Source: an uncultured Methanosarcinales archaeon (lineage in GTDB: Archaea > Halobacteriota > Methanosarcinia > Methanotrichales > Methanotrichaceae). Taken from it: a stretch of DNA of 64,000 nt. The DNA lies in the NCBI GenBank assembly GCA_963843555.1, contig CAWJKV010000012.1, positions 1 through 64,000 of the forward strand, in the 5' to 3' direction. The notes under the pieces were generated by a model that worked only from the letters and a program-made list of their open reading frames with translations, did not search any database and was not told the DNA's origin. Positions 2,336 through 52,943 of this stretch are shown one piece after another. Positions within the stretch are counted from its first letter, which is position 1; each line of letters begins with the position of its first letter. A program made the translations under genes and the position numbers.

Positions 2336-3339
2336 ATGGATAATCTTTCTAATCCGCAGAGGCGGCAGGCGCCCCCTGCCGCCTCTGATTCCCAGATGGA
2401 GGCGGTCGGGGCCGGGCATCGCCTGATGAGGTTTGCGGGGGATTTTTTCCGCGTTACAAAAGGGGAGCGGAGCGAGCAGGTGGCCGGATACCTGACCATC
2501 ATGCCGGCCCTGTTTTTGATCATGGGGCTGACGCTCTATCCGGTGATATACTCCATATGGCTGAGCCTCCTCGATAAGCACTCTTTTTTCCCCCAGGAGC
2601 GCTTCATCGGTCTTGAGAACTACATCTACCTGTGGAGCGATCCCGAGTTCTGGAGCAGTTTCTGGTTGGGTCTGGTTTACTCGTTCTGGACGATCGTCTT
2701 CCAGATTATCCTGGGGGTAGCGGCGGCGCTGATCTTGAACGAAACGTTCATCGGGCGGAACCTGATCCGGGGGATGGTGCTGTTCCCCTATATGATCCCG
2801 ACGATCGTGGCCGTGATCCTCTGGAAATGGCTGCTCAATGACATGTACGGGGTGGTCAACTACTGGCTTTTGGCCATCGGTATCGTCGAGGAACCCATAA
2901 GTTGGCTGGGCGCCGACCACATCATGTTTTCCGTGGTCGTGATGAGCATCTGGCAGTTTTTCCCCTTTGTCCTGCTCACTATCCTGGCCCGCCTGCAGAC
3001 GATCCCGGAGAAGCTTACGAGGCCGCCAAGGTGGACGGGGCCTCGGCCTTCAAGCGCTTCATCCACATCACCATCCCGCAGATCCGCGGGATCCTTTTCG
3101 TGGTCATCCTGCTGCGCAGCATCTGGATGTTCACGAAATTCGATACAGTATGGCTGATGGGTGAAGGGGCGGGGGCCGGGCGCTTCATCCGCACGCTGCC
3201 GGTCTACGCCTATATGAGGACCATGACCTACTACCAGGCGGGTCTCGGGGCGGCGCTGGCGGTTATCATGTTCCTCCTCCTGGTGATCTGTACCATCGTC
3301 TATTTCCGGATGTTTCGCGAGGAGGCCGATATAGGATGA
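2336..3339 (+). CDS. Carbohydrate ABC transporter permease (MalF/UgpA-like), one frameshift near 3015
   Basis: FIGLENY motif, TM helices and EAA loop (YEAAKVDGAS) across ORFs 2336-3157 and 2902-3339. Confidence 0.9.
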
Positions 3340-4178
3340 ACTTCCCGCGGTTACAGCGCATTTCGATGCGTACCCTTCTCTACATCGGCGCGGCGGCGCT
3401 GGCCTTCCAGGCCGCCTTTCCTTTTTTATGGATGGTTTCGACCTCCCTTAAGCCCCCGCCTGAGGTGTTCGCGACGCCTCCCGCGTTCATCCCCGACGAG
3501 CCGACCCTGGAAAACTTCATCCGGCTCTTTTCCGCCACCCATTTTCTGACCTACTTTAAGAACAGCATCGTCGTTTGCGGATGGGCCGTGGTCCTGACGA
3601 TGATCGTCAGCGCGTTCGGCGCTTACAGCCTCACGCGCTACCGCTATCCGGGACGGGAAAAGTTCGCGGGGCTGATTTTGTGCACCTACATGTTCGCCCC
3701 CATCATGGTGGTCATCCCCTTCTTCATCCTGGCCAAGAAGATCGGCATCGAGAATACGCATCTGGCCCTGGTGCTCTCCTTTACCTCCTTCTGCCTGCCC
3801 TTCACCCTCTGGATGATGCGGGCCTTTTTCATGACGATCCCCCTTGAGCTGGAGGAAGCGGCCATGGTGGACGGCTGCGGCAGGTTAAGGGCGGTTATAT
3901 TTGTGGTGCTTCCTCTGGCCCTGCCGGGGATCATCGCGACGTCCATCTTTACGTTCATCCTCGCCTGGAACGACTACATCTTTACCCGGATCCTCATCGC
4001 GTCCGATGAACTCAAGACATTGCCCGTCGGCGTGCAGGATCTCTTCAACTCGTCGATCATCGATTGGGGCCTGATCATGTCCGCAGGGATGATGATCACG
4101 ATTCCAGCCCTGGTCTTCTTCGTGGCGGTGCAGCGGTACCTCATCCGGGGCTGGGGTGCGGGAGCGGTCAAGGGGTAA
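3336..4178 (+). CDS. Carbohydrate ABC transporter permease (MalG/UgpE-like)
   Basis: EAA motif LEEAAMVDG and C-terminal GAVKG. ATGA overlap with the previous gene. Confidence 0.93.
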   Translation: MNFPRLQRISMRTLLYIGAAALAFQAAFPFLWMVSTSLKPPPEVFATPPAFIPDEPTLENFIRLFSATHFLTYFKNSIVVCGWAVVLTMIVSAFGAYSLTRYRYPGREKFAGLILCTYMFAPIMVVIPFFILAKKIGIENTHLALVLSFTSFCLPFTLWMMRAFFMTIPLELEEAAMVDGCGRLRAVIFVVLPLALPGIIATSIFTFILAWNDYIFTRILIASDELKTLPVGVQDLFNSSIIDWGLIMSAGMMITIPALVFFVAVQRYLIRGWGAGAVKG

Positions 4179-40138: not shown

Positions 40139-41062
40139 ATGCATCTGAGCCTCTCCAGATTTAGGGCGCATATTGAGCTGCTCCGCCCCCCCCTGGCCGC
40201 AATGGACCTGGCCATGCCCGCCGCTTCGGCTCTATTGGCAGTCTATGCGGTGGAGGGCGTGCTGCCCCCCCTATTGCCGTTTCTTGCAGCCGTCGTCGGA
40301 GCTTACTGTGCCATCACCAGCTCCTATGTCTATAACGACTGCTGCGACATCGATGTGGACAGAATAGCCATGCCCAACCGGCCGCTGCCATCTGCCAAGC
40401 TTGGAAAGAAAGAGGCCCTGGCCTGGTCGCTCTTCCTTTTTCTCGTAGCTATGGCGGTGGCCCTGTACCTCAATCCGGAAAGCTTCGTGACCCTCATTGT
40501 CGCCACGCTCTTGATCACCATCTACTCCGCCTGGGCCAAGAGAAGTACGCCCTTCTCCTGGATCTTTGTGGGCCTATCCTTTGGGCTGGTGCCTCTGGGC
40601 GTCTGGCTGGCCATGGAGCCGGCAGGGTTTCTAAAAACGGGCCCGGGCCTTCATCCCGCCGCCCTGGTCCTTTCGGCAATGATATGCATAACCGATTGGG
40701 GGTTCACCAACTGCGATGCCTCGCGAGATGTGGCAGGCGACAGAGAAGAAGGAATCCCGACCACGCCCGCCACTTTCGGCATCCCAGCTACCGCCAAGAT
40801 GGTGGCAGTCTTCTGGCTGATCGGCATCCTCCTTTCTCTTGCCCTGGGGCTTCTGGCTGACCTGGGATGGCTTTACTTCTTCGCCGCAGGCGCTGCAGGA
40901 GGCTGGCAGCTCCGGCATACCCTGGACTTCGTTCACAATCCGACTGCTGAAAGAGGTGACAGACTCTTTTACCAGTCTGCCAACTACCGCGCCGTGCTCT
41001 TCGCGGCCATAATTGTCGATGTGCTGCTGCGCACAATCCTGCCCATGGCGATCGGGTTCTGA
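40139..41062 (+). CDS. UbiA family prenyltransferase
   Basis: NDCCDIDVDRIAMPNRPLPS and DASRDVAGD aspartate-rich motifs; multiple TM segments. Confidence 0.9.
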   Translation: MHLSLSRFRAHIELLRPPLAAMDLAMPAASALLAVYAVEGVLPPLLPFLAAVVGAYCAITSSYVYNDCCDIDVDRIAMPNRPLPSAKLGKKEALAWSLFLFLVAMAVALYLNPESFVTLIVATLLITIYSAWAKRSTPFSWIFVGLSFGLVPLGVWLAMEPAGFLKTGPGLHPAALVLSAMICITDWGFTNCDASRDVAGDREEGIPTTPATFGIPATAKMVAVFWLIGILLSLALGLLADLGWLYFFAAGAAGGWQLRHTLDFVHNPTAERGDRLFYQSANYRAVLFAAIIVDVLLRTILPMAIGF

Positions 41063-41124
41063 TCCGCAGCAAAAAGGGAAATAGTTCAGTCAAATGAATA
41101 AGGAAAATAGCGAATCGAATCCTG

Positions 41125-41595
41125 GGTGGGCCAGAACCGATTCACAACGCCCAACTTGCTGGAGCCTATCATTGGAGTGACCGGCCTGGCCCTGCCCGGA
41201 CTCGACATTATGCCAACAGGCGGCACAGCGCTGGAATCGAAACACAGCCTCCTTTTACGGGAACCCATTCATCAAGGTGCCATATGCCTCCTTCAGCTAA
41301 TGGCTTGCTGCCCGCGCCTTTTCCGACCGTGTATTAGCGCGAGAGATCCCGACATTTTGCTGCGCCAACTAAGGCGCGCAACTTTCAGCAGCCGAGATTC
41401 TTATCCTCACAGGCTCGTAGCCGAATGCATTGCCCGAAGGGATAGCATCTCCTGGAACAAGGGATACGATCCGCCCTAGGAGCGAACCCATGCCGCCTAC
41501 CGGTTGGGGCAAGCACCTAAATCATCCTCGCCAAACAGAGCATTATCGGAATCTAGTTAAGCCCATGGCACGCCCGCCATCCGTTTGAAGACACG
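41125..41595 (-). ncRNA. Candidate large structured non-coding RNA (~450-475 nt), family not recognised
   Basis: No credible ORF. At least 9 mutually compatible nested helices found by hand, G-U pairs favouring the minus strand, cUUCGg and T-loop-like motifs, upstream TATA box and T-rich 3' tract. Confidence 0.7.
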
Positions 41596-41617
41596 CGACA
41601 AATTGACTACATAATCG

Positions 41618-41625
41618 TTATATAC
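41618..41625 (-). promoter_or_regulatory. TATA box for the candidate ncRNA
   Basis: Minus-strand GTATATAA. Typical archaeal spacing would place the start site near 41595. The box could also work on the plus strand. Confidence 0.5.
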
Positions 41626-41979
41626 ATTGTAGTTTGCAGTTGAAGGCCCGGCTGAGCGGAGAATGGATATGGAAAATGGAGAACAGGCCCTGGCAATTCC
41701 CCGTGCTCTAAGTATCCGGTCACGAGCTTCTAATCATTTGTTTGCCCACCGTCTATGTCATAATGATAGTCAAACAAAACAGGATTCGCGGATGCTTTCT
41801 ATGAATTTTTATTATTCTAAATGAAAAATATATGTTGACCCACAACCCAAACCTGGATATATACCAAAGAGAGTAAGGCCATTCCCGGGAACAGGCCGCA
41901 GTTACCACGGCTTTTTGTTCTCGATCTGATCGAATCATCTAGATTATGTGTAGGCGTTCTTTTGGTTCCGCTGACGAGA

Positions 41980-42225
41980 CTAAATTCCTGCCAGCTCATT
42001 TACTTGATTGATAGCTTCCAGCAGATTTTCGCCTTTTTGTGTGGTTTCATACAGCTTCTTTTCCCCATGCTGGACCTCTAGTAAATCATTTTTAATCAGG
42101 AGGTCCAAGTATGGTTCTACTGTTTTGAAATTGAGGTTCGCCTGATATACTACTCGGGTCTTAATGGCGCCGTTCTTGCATACATGTAGAATTTGCGATA
42201 TAATTTCTTCTCGGTTCCTCTTCAT
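41980..42225 (-). CDS. Small winged-helix transcriptional regulator (ArnR1-like/HTH_45)
   Basis: MKRNREEIISQIL..KTRVVYQANLNF..YLDLL..YETTQKG. Confidence 0.88.
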   Translation of the reverse strand: MKRNREEIISQILHVCKNGAIKTRVVYQANLNFKTVEPYLDLLIKNDLLEVQHGEKKLYETTQKGENLLEAINQVNELAGI

Positions 42226-42377
42226 ACCACCCACTCTCCTATAAGTTTCTGATCTTCAATCGGGGATTGTGATAATAATGTAACTGCGTTCTTCTGATTT
42301 AAGGATCTATGACACAGATCGAGAATTATAGCACAAAGCATGAACAGTATGCAGTCACTTTTAATTAATTGCGATAG

Positions 42378-46029: not shown

Positions 46030-46815
46030 CTATCCGAGAACGCAGATCGCCCGTGGTTCTCTGATCAGAAGCGCCAGGCTTTCTGATATGGAGAATTCCA
46101 GGTTCTCGCCCATCGGCCCGTTGTAGCCGAGGGTCATGTCCTGACCCAGCACAATGGCTGCGTATTGCCTCCCTGATGCCATGAGGACTCCCCCGCTCTC
46201 CAGAATGGGGGCTTTGAAGATGCCGTCTGTGACCAGAGCCTGAAGATACTCGAGCTCGGTACCTCCCTGGGGATAGCGGCGGAAGAGGTGGTTGTAGCGT
46301 TCAGGCGCTAAGGCCAATGTATATGGTCCGTGGAAGCCGGCCTTGTCCAGGAGGGTTATTGCAGCTATGACGTCCCCCACAGCCTTGCCCATAGCTTCCC
46401 AACTGGAGAGCTTGAGCCCCGAGGCTCCTTTGCTATTCAGAAGGCCGGATTCTCCGCTCATTCCTTCGAATATCAGGGACTCCTCCAGCCCGGCTGCCTC
46501 CTGTGCGGCCTTGGCCACAGGAGCGGTGTTGATGGGCATACCATCCTTTTCCGCAGCCGCCAGATCCCTCTTGCTCATGGAGAAGGTCTTATGGATCAAA
46601 GATAAGGGCACAAAGTTGCTTGTGATGATACCATTTTCCGCCCGGACGTCCTGTAAAGGCACTGCCTTGAGTCCAAGTCCGTAGGGGCCTTCGAGATTCA
46701 ACATCCTTCTTCCTGTGAGAACCCCTCGGGCCGCCTCGGCCATAGTGCTGTCCAAAGCCTTCCACGTTTCCGGTCCAATGGGCGCATCTTCCCGCCCTAA
46801 GTAATCATTTTCCAT
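46030..46815 (-). CDS. Family 1 encapsulin shell protein (Linocin M18-like)
   Basis: DYLGREDAPI..W..TGRRMLNLEGPYG, EESLIFEG, GPYTLAL and LGQDMTLGY. GGAGG RBS before ATG 46815. Confidence 0.93.
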   Translation of the reverse strand: MENDYLGREDAPIGPETWKALDSTMAEAARGVLTGRRMLNLEGPYGLGLKAVPLQDVRAENGIITSNFVPLSLIHKTFSMSKRDLAAAEKDGMPINTAPVAKAAQEAAGLEESLIFEGMSGESGLLNSKGASGLKLSSWEAMGKAVGDVIAAITLLDKAGFHGPYTLALAPERYNHLFRRYPQGGTELEYLQALVTDGIFKAPILESGGVLMASGRQYAAIVLGQDMTLGYNGPMGENLEFSISESLALLIREPRAICVLG

Positions 46816-46833
46816 TGATATGTCCTCCTGCAA

Positions 46834-47223
46834 TCACTTCTTTAGCGACCCGATGGTCGTCTGGATAGGCTTCTCCTCGCCCTCAGGCTTTGTCGCCTCC
46901 ACTGTGACCTCTTGAGACGGCAGGGAGATCTCGAGAGCCATCTCATCGACCTCCTGGGCCCCTTTTGCCAGCTGCAGGTCCTCATCTCCTGTAAGAATGG
47001 AGAGCAGCCGGGCGAACTCTCCGATGTGAACTCTCTCCTCATTGGCGATATCGATGAAGACCTTCTTGGCCAGAGGATTATCTGTGGCCTCGGCATGGGC
47101 CATATAAAGGTGAACTGCTTCCTGCTCGGCGGAGAGGTCAAGGCGTATCGCTCTGATCAGCTCTTCCATGGAGAGCTTGCGATCGGGCACTTTTCCGCTG
47201 AATGGATTAACGAACTCAGGCAT
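46834..47223 (-). CDS. Ferritin-like encapsulin cargo protein with C-terminal targeting peptide
   Basis: AEQEAVHLY and IANEERVHIGE di-iron-type motifs; flexible tail ending TIGSLKK. Confidence 0.9.
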   Translation of the reverse strand: MPEFVNPFSGKVPDRKLSMEELIRAIRLDLSAEQEAVHLYMAHAEATDNPLAKKVFIDIANEERVHIGEFARLLSILTGDEDLQLAKGAQEVDEMALEISLPSQEVTVEATKPEGEEKPIQTTIGSLKK

Positions 47224-52569: not shown

Positions 52570-52943
52570 AATAGAAAATCGCATTCTTAATATTAAATGC
52601 TTTACTCGCAGGAACCAGAATGCTGCAATTGCCTGTCTATGACGATTATAGAAGAAAGTTCTTCTTGCATTTTGGATGAGGTATTCTCTGTGTGGCTTTG
52701 CCTGGATTTCGCGAAATCTTGGGCCTGGGTATGATGTGCGATTATATATTCGGCCATTAGCCCTTCCGAAGATGCGTTATAGGCTCGCCTGCATATCGAT
52801 TCTCAGATTGATTTCTCTTTGTAAATATGCCCTGGCCAAAAAGCTTATATCTCGGCAATTGCCGTATGTAGTACATGGCAAAGGTCGAATCTCATTTCTT
52901 TCCCATCAAGATGACTTTTGCCTCCCTCCTATTCATGATTGAC

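What the first reader, a model, noticed from the sequence alone, without database searches (positions are those of the whole stretch)
41125..41595. Large, intricately folded, apparently unannotated ncRNA in a methanogen (minus strand)
Seen, folded by hand (plus-strand coordinates, minus-strand RNA). A long terminal helix pairs 41531-41565 with 41127-41162 (UGGGC/GCCCA, AACU/GGUU, GAUUC/GAAUC, AUAAUGCUC/GGGCGUUGU). It continues inward with GAG-UGAUU/GGUCA-CUC, CUUGCC/GGCAGG and CCAAC..AGGCGGCA/UGCCGCCU-GUUGG (41491-41507 with 41213-41225), which closes a large multiloop. One branched domain is closed by UGGGUUCG/CGAGCCUG (41483-90 with 41410-17) and holds CUCCU/AGGAG and a cUUCGg-capped hairpin. 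Further arms are AUCUCGGC/GUCGGGAU (41391-98 with 41346-53) enclosing GCGCC/GGCGC, CUCGCGC/GCGCGGG, CCAUU/AAUGG around CUGA..UGAUGA (C/D-box-like words), and GCUG/CAGC capped by a T-loop-like UUCGAUU (41230-41248). The many G-U pairs work only on the minus strand. A TATA box (41618-25) precedes it and T-rich tracts follow (~41070-41108). It lacks RNase P (GAGGAAAGUCC), SRP helix-8 and group II intron domain-V motifs. Inference: an independently transcribed large structured RNA of a class I cannot name, comparable in size and complexity to OLE/ROOL/GOLLD-type RNAs. It lies between a convergent UbiA prenyltransferase and a small winged-helix regulator.
Basis: partly seen in the sequence, partly recalled or inferred. 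Interest (0 to 1): 0.9.

Follow-up and report, generated by a model that had tools for sequence, protein, structure and literature searches.

The report
Multi-copy large structured RNA of Methanothrix
This stretch is a somewhat worn copy of a roughly 490-base folded, non-coding RNA gene that acetate-eating methanogens keep in several copies per genome; it matches no catalogued RNA family, its relatives look very abundant in one sediment RNA sample, and its job is unknown.

Summary
The RNA gene is real, but most of the hand-made fold is not the conserved one. The locus (41112-41599, minus strand) belongs to a family found in 84 of 105 genomes of one order (Methanotrichales), at 1-12 copies per genome. 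It was found in 0 of 76 other genomes of the class. It has no Rfam match; RNase P and SRP RNAs lie elsewhere in the genome.

Two subfamilies give the same three side-by-side domains. Paired columns change together about twice as often as permuted partners (93 vs 44; 126 vs 48). Domains II and III carry duplicated four-way-junction heads with T-loop-like loops.

In one metatranscriptome, relatives' contigs reach summed depth 6,000-227,000 on part of the RNA, against 0-7 on flanking genes. Strand and ends are not shown. This copy is divergent (17 of 156 near-invariant sites changed), lacks the small anti-Shine-Dalgarno-like RNA that usually follows, and is absent from a close relative.

Best guess for function: an abundant scaffold or decoy whose T-loop heads dock tRNA elbows (about 0.3). 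Earlier unchecked notes of this scan seem to describe the same family.

The parts
41600..41643 (-). Conserved promoter block (BRE-like word, then AT-rich imperfect palindrome); sharp upstream edge of family homology
   Evidence: Conserved in both subfamilies. Left end of pairwise matches within -10..+9 of this edge in 185 of 300 pairs. Same BRE-TATA spacing by eye as the RNase P and tRNA promoters of this genome. Profile score 34 here against 51-58 for the other four full copies in the genome. Promoter function is inferred, not mapped.
41112..41599 (-). Large structured non-coding RNA, type A, about 490 nt (ends inferred from the outermost conserved helices)
   Evidence: (105 bits with model R1, a model built partly from this sequence).
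41309..41600 (-). Domain I: 13-bp closing helix, then a nested helix and two branched arms
   Evidence: RNAalifold on types A and B separately. Closing helix 6 compensatory events in 5 pairs in A and 6 in 4 pairs in B.
41356..41382 (-). Hairpin with bulged A and a six-base loop whose 2nd and 4th bases (U, A) are 99% conserved
   Evidence: 84 of 107 members matched by the pattern. Its pair 41377:41362 is the top-ranked covarying pair.
41211..41305 (-). Domain II: interrupted stem ending in a four-way junction; short arm with 8-nt loop (41249-41262) and T-loop-like arm (41229-41248)
   Evidence: (helices 3-5: 91-97% paired, 10 of 13 pairs with two-sided changes).
41114..41206 (-). Domain III: about 19-bp stem ending in a second four-way junction homologous to that of domain II
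41070..41110 (-). U-rich tail (putative terminator); 41094-41104 looks like the last bases of the small-RNA block that is deleted at this copy
   Evidence: Sequence; the same 11 letters close the small-RNA block at the ubiA site of two relatives. Inference.
41094..41979 (.). Segment (RNA gene plus 335 bp of unique DNA) absent in close relative G077, where ubiA and the winged-helix gene are adjacent
52837..52930 (+). Orphan copy of the companion small RNA gene (own BRE/TATA-like block, about 70-nt hairpin, C/U-rich loop and tail)
   Evidence: It follows 115 of 149 type A and 21 of 71 type B copies (loci not de-duplicated).

Best explanation
Shown: a multi-copy family of stand-alone, non-coding RNA genes of Methanotrichaceae, about 460-500 nt, with a conserved promoter block and three independently folding helical domains, two of which end in duplicated four-way junctions. 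Inferred: it is transcribed at very high level and acts in trans as a folded RNA, not through neighbouring genes. Mechanism I think most likely (inferred, untested): each duplicated head brings its short-arm loop and its T-loop-like arm together into a flat T-loop platform. [quoted passage not shown] The RNA would then be a multivalent scaffold or decoy that holds tRNA, or competes with tRNA for its protein partners, and so buffers translation. The companion small RNA with anti-Shine-Dalgarno-like words would act on the same process. The window's copy is a divergent paralogue that may be decaying (about even odds). Confidence that the family is a real structured ncRNA is about 0.93; the number given here is for the mechanism.
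For: Structure: 36 of 57 named pairs show two-sided changes against 20.0 +/- 2.5 in shuffles, 0 of 500 as high. Same-branch co-changes 93 vs 44 (A) and 126 vs 48 (B), 0 of 2000 permutations; 115 vs 47 and 159 vs 61 on larger sets. Not coding: only 23 of 116 and 10 of 74 deletions are multiples of three, and no ORF is shared by both types. Independent of context: 194 neighbour clusters among 303 nearest ORFs, both orientations. Abundance hint. T-loop-like loops: the short-arm loop has U 82%, A 91%, purine 90%, A 88% in 67 of 69 members. The T-arm loop has a G-C closing pair (98%, 88%), U 71%, purine 81%, A 91% and a final U 89% in 56 of 69. Duplicated heads.
Against: No direct test of tertiary structure or tRNA binding was possible. 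The T-loop consensus used for comparison is recalled and short A-rich loops are common. The third arm of the domain III head has a different, shorter loop. All-against-all covariation with a tree null found no pair at E<=0.05 in any alignment; the best were E 0.4 (A), 3.4 (B), 3.6 (A+B). So support is for the model as a whole, not pair by pair, and the model was derived from the same alignments. The family was not found in 21 of 105 genomes of the order, among them two near-complete closed assemblies, so it is probably dispensable. Expression rests on one run of assembled contigs of relatives, without strand, and 41113-41283 had no cover. The small RNA pairs with the large one no better than with shuffles (-41.7 vs -43.4 kcal/mol, 40 cassettes) and showed no common target.
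Confidence: 0.3

Rival explanations
1. A ROOL/GOLLD-like RNA that assembles with itself into a protein-free multimer or cage; the three long stems and A-rich loops make intermolecular contacts.
For: Similar size, many junctions, apparent very high abundance and dispensability, as described for ROOL (10.1101/2024.12.08.627333, passages). Repeated modules suit symmetric assembly. A conserved, unpaired G-rich 5' segment of type A is complementary to the 3' stem strand and could pair between molecules.
Against: No conserved loop-loop helix of 4 bp or more between unpaired segments, apart from one weak G-U-rich candidate in type A. No recurrent phage or tRNA-island context: 0 viral hits, 1 of 36 pattern hits real, none in phage or plasmid collections.
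Confidence: 0.2
2. An OLE-like or sponge-like ribonucleoprotein: the RNA binds a dedicated lineage-specific protein (candidate DUF1699) or titrates an abundant regulator.
For: DUF1699 (PF08004) is the commonest neighbour: 25 of 303 nearest ORFs, beside both types and in more than one arrangement.
Against: It is a minority neighbour. In this genome neither DUF1699 gene lies near an RNA copy. No solved relative and no function for DUF1699 was found.
Confidence: 0.2
3. A non-autonomous mobile cassette (promoter + RNA + small RNA) whose RNA serves its own spread, like the RNAs of IS200/IS605-type elements.
For: 1-12 copies per genome. Sharp left edge. Two copies 97.5% alike with unrelated flanks in one genome. 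Empty site in G077. 48 left-flank clusters among 119 cassettes.
Against: No target-site duplication (7-mers 5 vs 5.2 expected, 8-mers 1 vs 1.5, 6-mers 22 vs 15.9, of 48) and no conserved target bases. The right edge is ragged. No recurrent transposase, nuclease or reverse transcriptase neighbour. Gene order is fluid anyway: DNA behind ubiA falls into 17 clusters in 28 genomes. Relatives keep all or part of the cassette at the ubiA site, which fits old copies lost piecemeal. Gene conversion between copies would also give sharp edges.
Confidence: 0.15
4. A new ribozyme, or a structured mRNA for a tiny peptide controlled by the small RNA (type I toxin-antitoxin logic).
For: Large complex RNAs are often catalytic (PMC5737381, passage). 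A 13-14-codon ORF behind a purine-rich word is shared by 43 of 69 type A members.
Against: The ORF has no spacing to the purine word, lies inside helices, is frameshifted in many type A members and is absent in type B. No match to any Rfam ribozyme or intron model. Only 2 invariant columns in domains II-III.
Confidence: 0.1
5. Not a functional RNA: a dispersed GC-rich repeat that folds by chance.
For: The single window sequence folds no better than shuffles; no single pair is significant in all-against-all tests.
Against: Model-wide covariation, the same architecture from two subfamilies whose members are as little as 43% alike, family z-scores, RNA-library depth with the promoter uncovered.
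Confidence: 0.05

Closest known systems
ROOL (about 580-660 nt) and GOLLD (often over 800 nt) RNAs
   Same: Large, multi-junction, no known function; ROOL reported as abundant as 16S rRNA yet non-essential (passages).
   Different: No Rfam match. Archaeal, chromosomal and multi-copy, not phage- or tRNA-island-linked. No conserved pseudoknot found. Duplicated four-way-junction heads.
OLE RNA
   Same: Similar size class; high expression in anaerobes (abstract listing of PMC3413148).
   Different: No Rfam match; no fixed partner gene; several copies per genome; different fold.
T-loop-pair RNAs: RNase P S-domain, T-box stem I, L1 stalk (and raiA RNA, recalled)
   Same: Two neighbouring loops with a U...A five-base pattern, the candidate for a tRNA-elbow platform described in PMC4919913.
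   Different: Not RNase P (true gene at G000:C14:154896-155199). Not a leader of synthetase genes. Interdigitation not shown.
Methanosarcina mazei sRNA162/sRNA171 (for the companion small RNA only)
   Same: Archaeal small RNA with a single-stranded part able to mask ribosome-binding sites; duplicated gene (passages).
   Different: The companion is about 70 nt with one hairpin, has no Rfam match, and no specific target was found. Homology to sRNA162 was not tested directly.

Membership tests
Any Rfam 15 family (incl. OLE, GOLLD, ROOL, raiA, HEARO, group I/II introns, tmRNA) | Covariance-model score at the family's gathering threshold | tested here: not met
   No hit for this copy, a typical type A cassette or six type B loci (two sub-threshold chance-level hits, 18 and 9 bits).
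Archaeal RNase P RNA (RF00373) | Model match; single housekeeping gene | tested here: not met
   The genome's RNase P RNA scores 223 bits on contig C14; nothing here.
Archaeal SRP RNA (RF01857) | Model match with helix 8 motif | tested here: not met
   The genome's SRP RNA scores 191 bits on contig C3; nothing here.
Box C/D guide RNA | Conserved C and D box words (consensus recalled) | tested here: not met
   Purine-led C-box word in 0 of 107 members; the D-like word near 41296 in 9 of 102.
ROOL/GOLLD-type RNA cages | Prophage or tRNA-island context | tested here: not met
   one viral-collection contig, whose neighbouring genes match this host's chromosome.
ROOL/GOLLD-type RNA cages | Conserved kissing loops or pseudoknots | tested here: inconclusive
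   None of 4 bp or more between unpaired segments except one weak candidate; shorter or non-canonical contacts are not detectable.
ROOL/GOLLD-type RNA cages | RNA-only multimer | not testable with these tools
   Needs biophysics or cryo-EM.
Interdigitated T-loop (tRNA-elbow-binding) RNAs | Two five-base loops with conserved U at 1 and A at 5, purine-rich | tested here: met
   (domain II head: U 82%/A 88% and U 71%/A 91%); the consensus itself is recalled.
Interdigitated T-loop (tRNA-elbow-binding) RNAs | Head-to-tail interlocking of the loops and stacking on tRNA | not testable with these tools
   Non-Watson-Crick contacts; hard to predict in silico per PMC4919913.
Non-autonomous insertion element (MITE/IS200-605-like) | Target-site duplication or conserved target word; two defined ends | tested here: not met
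   left end sharp, right end ragged, no duplication above control.
Non-autonomous insertion element (MITE/IS200-605-like) | Filled and empty orthologous sites | tested here: inconclusive
   Empty site in G077, but the missing segment includes 335 bp of other DNA and other relatives keep parts of the cassette there.
Type I toxin-antitoxin mRNA | Conserved small ORF with ribosome-binding site, and antisense match to the partner RNA | tested here: not met

The most novel reading that the evidence does not exclude
An archaeal large ornate RNA class, built by duplicating a four-way-junction T-loop head, made at near-ribosomal level from several genes per genome. It works as a multivalent RNA-only device that captures tRNA elbows (or self-assembles), together with an anti-Shine-Dalgarno small RNA: an RNA-based translation-buffering or storage system in the acetoclastic Methanotrichaceae.
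Probability: 0.25. Interest if true: 0.92.

Novelty: categorically new. Interest (0 to 1): 0.75.

Why it matters
Large orphan structured RNAs are rare, and the ones studied are bacterial. A family of this size in archaea, multi-copy and apparently among the most abundant RNAs in one sediment library, would be a missed component of Methanothrix, a major acetate-using methane producer (own knowledge). It gives a ready cryo-EM and pull-down target, with natural deletion variants and two subfamilies as built-in controls. It would also matter for reading digester and sediment metatranscriptomes, where such reads stay unassigned. The rating 'categorically new' refers to family and architecture relative to Rfam and the searched papers; the mechanism is unproven. 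Other agents of this scan seem to have reported the same family, so this window adds detail (corrected fold, duplicated heads, companion RNA, a divergent copy) more than a first sighting.

Tried and rejected
Single-sequence folding gave no signal. The first RNAalifold run on 30 sequences paired the 5' G-rich segment with the 3' end; larger sets and type B replaced this with a local domain III stem. All-against-all G-tests with a simulated tree null were underpowered, with no pair at E<=0.05. An event-based scan put two model pairs on top, but 26 of 30 and 10 of 14 candidates were outside the model and scattered. A mechanically mapped family fold of this copy scored -125 because of mis-registered columns; hand registration gave -165.

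No constant neighbour gene, transposase or reverse transcriptase was found. DUF1699 gave no structural or literature lead. There was no small-to-large RNA pairing and no shared mRNA target. The sigma-70 promoter/terminator scan is not informative for archaea. Two hits in bins labelled Patescibacteria and Micrarchaeota lie on 2-3 kb contigs whose ORFs match this genome, so I treat them as probable mis-binning. One partial 20.7-bit hit outside the family is treated as chance. The lack of contig cover at 41113-41283 proves nothing either way. A profile search of whole genomes with the DNA alignment was not available, so single sequences and a covariance model of domains II-III were used; domain I was not searched with a structure model outside the family.

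Full report
1. Observation. The flagged stretch lies between ubiA (40139-41062, +) and a winged-helix gene (41980-42234, -). Rfam gives nothing at gathering score in the window except three tRNAs elsewhere, and nothing up to E=10 on 41000-41750. ARAGORN finds nothing. Alone, the sequence folds no better than shuffles (z -0.69 minus, -0.95 plus; -1.64 with corrected ends), so the hand fold could not by itself be called more than chance.

2. It is one copy of a family. BLAST with the stretch hit 34 of 36 same-genus genomes and 0 of 24 genomes of other families. Record titles of pattern hits name Methanothrix, Methanosaeta and Methanotrichaceae; the bacterial pattern hits had no profile match. 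A second, divergent subfamily (type B, 40 sequences) shares the promoter block and the 3' part. A covariance model of the 3' 216 positions (R1) found 84 of 105 genomes of the order at E<=1e-5 (12 of 16 genera, 1-12 matches each). It found 55 of 74 family genomes and 0 of 76 other genomes of the class, and one 20.7-bit partial hit among 146 non-family genomes of the phylum. These are samples searched with strict filters: not found is not absent. This genome holds eight matches: four type A, one type B, three more divergent. RNase P and SRP RNAs are separate genes.

3. Structure. RNAalifold and averaged pair probabilities on type A (69 sequences) and type B (38) separately gave the same plan. 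Domain I (41600-41309) is closed by a 13-16-bp helix that uses the first bases behind the promoter. Domain II (41305-41211) and domain III (41206-41114) are each a long stem capped by a four-way junction. For a named 57-pair structure of domains II-III on 69 mixed sequences, 89% of cells pair and 36 pairs show two-sided changes, against 20.0 +/- 2.5 in shuffles (0 of 500). A tree-aware count of branches on which both partners change gave 93 against 44 +/- 6 (A) and 126 against 48 +/- 6 (B) for permuted partners. On 102 and 57 sequences it gave 115 vs 47 and 159 vs 61. Limits: the model comes from the same alignments, nearby columns share alignment errors, and all-against-all tests found no pair at E<=0.05. 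Mean folding z of 17 members was -3.0 on the RNA strand and -1.7 on the other.

4. Duplicated heads and loops. A profile of the domain III head scores 62 of 69 domain II heads above the 99th percentile of shuffles, and the reverse holds for 52 of 69 (most shuffles gave no hit). The two heads align on the short arm with an 8-base loop and on the third arm. No conserved pseudoknot of 4 bp or more between unpaired segments was found, apart from one weak candidate.

5. Not an mRNA, not a leader. Deletions ignore frame (23 of 116 and 10 of 74 are multiples of three). The most shared ORF is 13-14 codons in 43 of 69 type A members and absent from type B. Nearest ORFs fall into 194 clusters among 303, in both orientations; DUF1699 is the commonest, at 25.

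6. Expression. One metatranscriptome run was listed, holding 0.04 of the sampled words. Laid at 80% likeness, 308 contigs gave summed depth 5,891-227,216 over 41284-41568, 40 over 41569-41625, 0 over the rest of the promoter side, and 0-7 on ubiA and the winged-helix gene. The promoter block is well conserved in DNA, so its lack of cover argues for RNA, not DNA. Against: these are contigs of relatives, summed; the tool warns that such depths cannot rank genes. There is no strand, no ends, one study only, and 41113-41283 had no cover. Expression of this very copy is not shown.

7. Companion small RNA. About 45 bases behind most copies lies a second promoter-like block and a hairpin of about 70 nt with C/U-rich, anti-Shine-Dalgarno-like words in its loop and tail. 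It follows 115 of 149 type A and 21 of 71 type B loci (not de-duplicated) and also occurs alone, once at window 52837-52930. It has no Rfam match, no special pairing with the large RNA and no common target. At the flagged copy it is deleted but for its last 11 letters (inferred).

8. This copy. It keeps 116 of 146 model pairs (third lowest of 69, median 93%), changes 17 of 156 near-invariant sites (median 1; rank 7 of 102), and its nearest member is 78% alike. In a close relative (G077; ubiA piece 91% alike) ubiA and the winged-helix gene are adjacent and 41094-41979 is missing. Two other relatives keep only the small RNA at this site, and one keeps the whole cassette. Energy cannot choose between folds for this copy: family -165.0, reader -166.5, free -196.5 kcal/mol. 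It may be decaying.

9. Mobility. The left edge of homology is sharp (185 of 300 pairs within ten bases), the right edge ragged, and two copies in one genome are 97.5% alike with unrelated flanks. But there is no target duplication or target word above control, and the DNA behind ubiA is itself in 17 contexts in 28 genomes. One of 36 viral-collection pattern hits is a real member, flanked by host-like genes; phage and plasmid collections gave none. Duplication, gene conversion and piecemeal loss explain the data; true transposition is open.

10. Mechanism. Shown: non-coding, conserved fold, own promoter block, context-independent, lineage-restricted, probably dispensable. Inferred: very abundant, acting in trans. 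My best guess (0.3) is a scaffold or decoy whose paired T-loop heads dock tRNA elbows or compete for tRNA-binding proteins, by analogy with the motif described in PMC4919913 (passages read). Rivals: RNA-only multimer (0.2), protein-bound or sponge RNA (0.2), selfish cassette (0.15), ribozyme or peptide mRNA (0.1), no function (0.05).

11. Novelty. Nine paper searches showed no description of such an RNA; I saw listings and abstract starts only, plus passages of 10.1101/2024.12.08.627333, PMC4919913, PMC5737381 (no 'Methano' word in its main text) and PMC3510493. The library lacks most subscription papers, and I did not open supplementary motif files, which could hold an uncatalogued motif of this kind. 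Look-ups of earlier scan notes by sequence and place found nothing. A word search returned three unchecked notes that seem to describe the same family from other genomes; identity could not be verified, and they are not independent evidence.

12. Verdict. Interest 0.75.

Noticed in passing
window 52837-52930 (+): Orphan copy of the companion small RNA, preceded by a stretch that looks like the worn 3' tail of a large RNA copy.
   Followed up: partly
G000:C8:9036-9510 (-), C16:91264-91464 (-), C16:78715-79130 (-): Three much more divergent family members (41-92 bits with R1); one lacks a detectable promoter block, one is followed by the small RNA. Possibly further subfamilies.
   Followed up: partly
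L275:3026-4598 and L277:2140-3568: A DUF1699 gene flanked by two RNA paralogues: a divergent one upstream and a promoterless, 5'-truncated type A copy directly downstream, possibly co-transcribed.
   Followed up: partly
L005, L009, L018, L189-L191, L205, L206: Natural deletions remove the variable arm of domain I cleanly in both subfamilies, showing that this arm is dispensable.
   Followed up: partly
L279:2769-4445: Tandem type A then type B copy followed by one small RNA.
   Followed up: no
L439 (IMG/VR contig) 2638-3487: Type B member and small RNA on a viral-collection contig next to DUF1699 and an integrase-like ORF fragment; may be host DNA beside a provirus.
   Followed up: partly
window 41644-41979: 335 bp of AT-rich DNA unique in this genome, missing in G077 together with the RNA gene; origin unexplained.
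   Followed up: partly
window 46030-47223: Two adjacent ORFs that look like an encapsulin-type shell protein and a ferritin-like cargo (from their translations; names recalled, not scanned).
   Followed up: no
L003 and L058, behind the large RNA: A 305-aa transposase-like ORF sits between the large and the small RNA, pushing them 1.1 kb apart.
   Followed up: no
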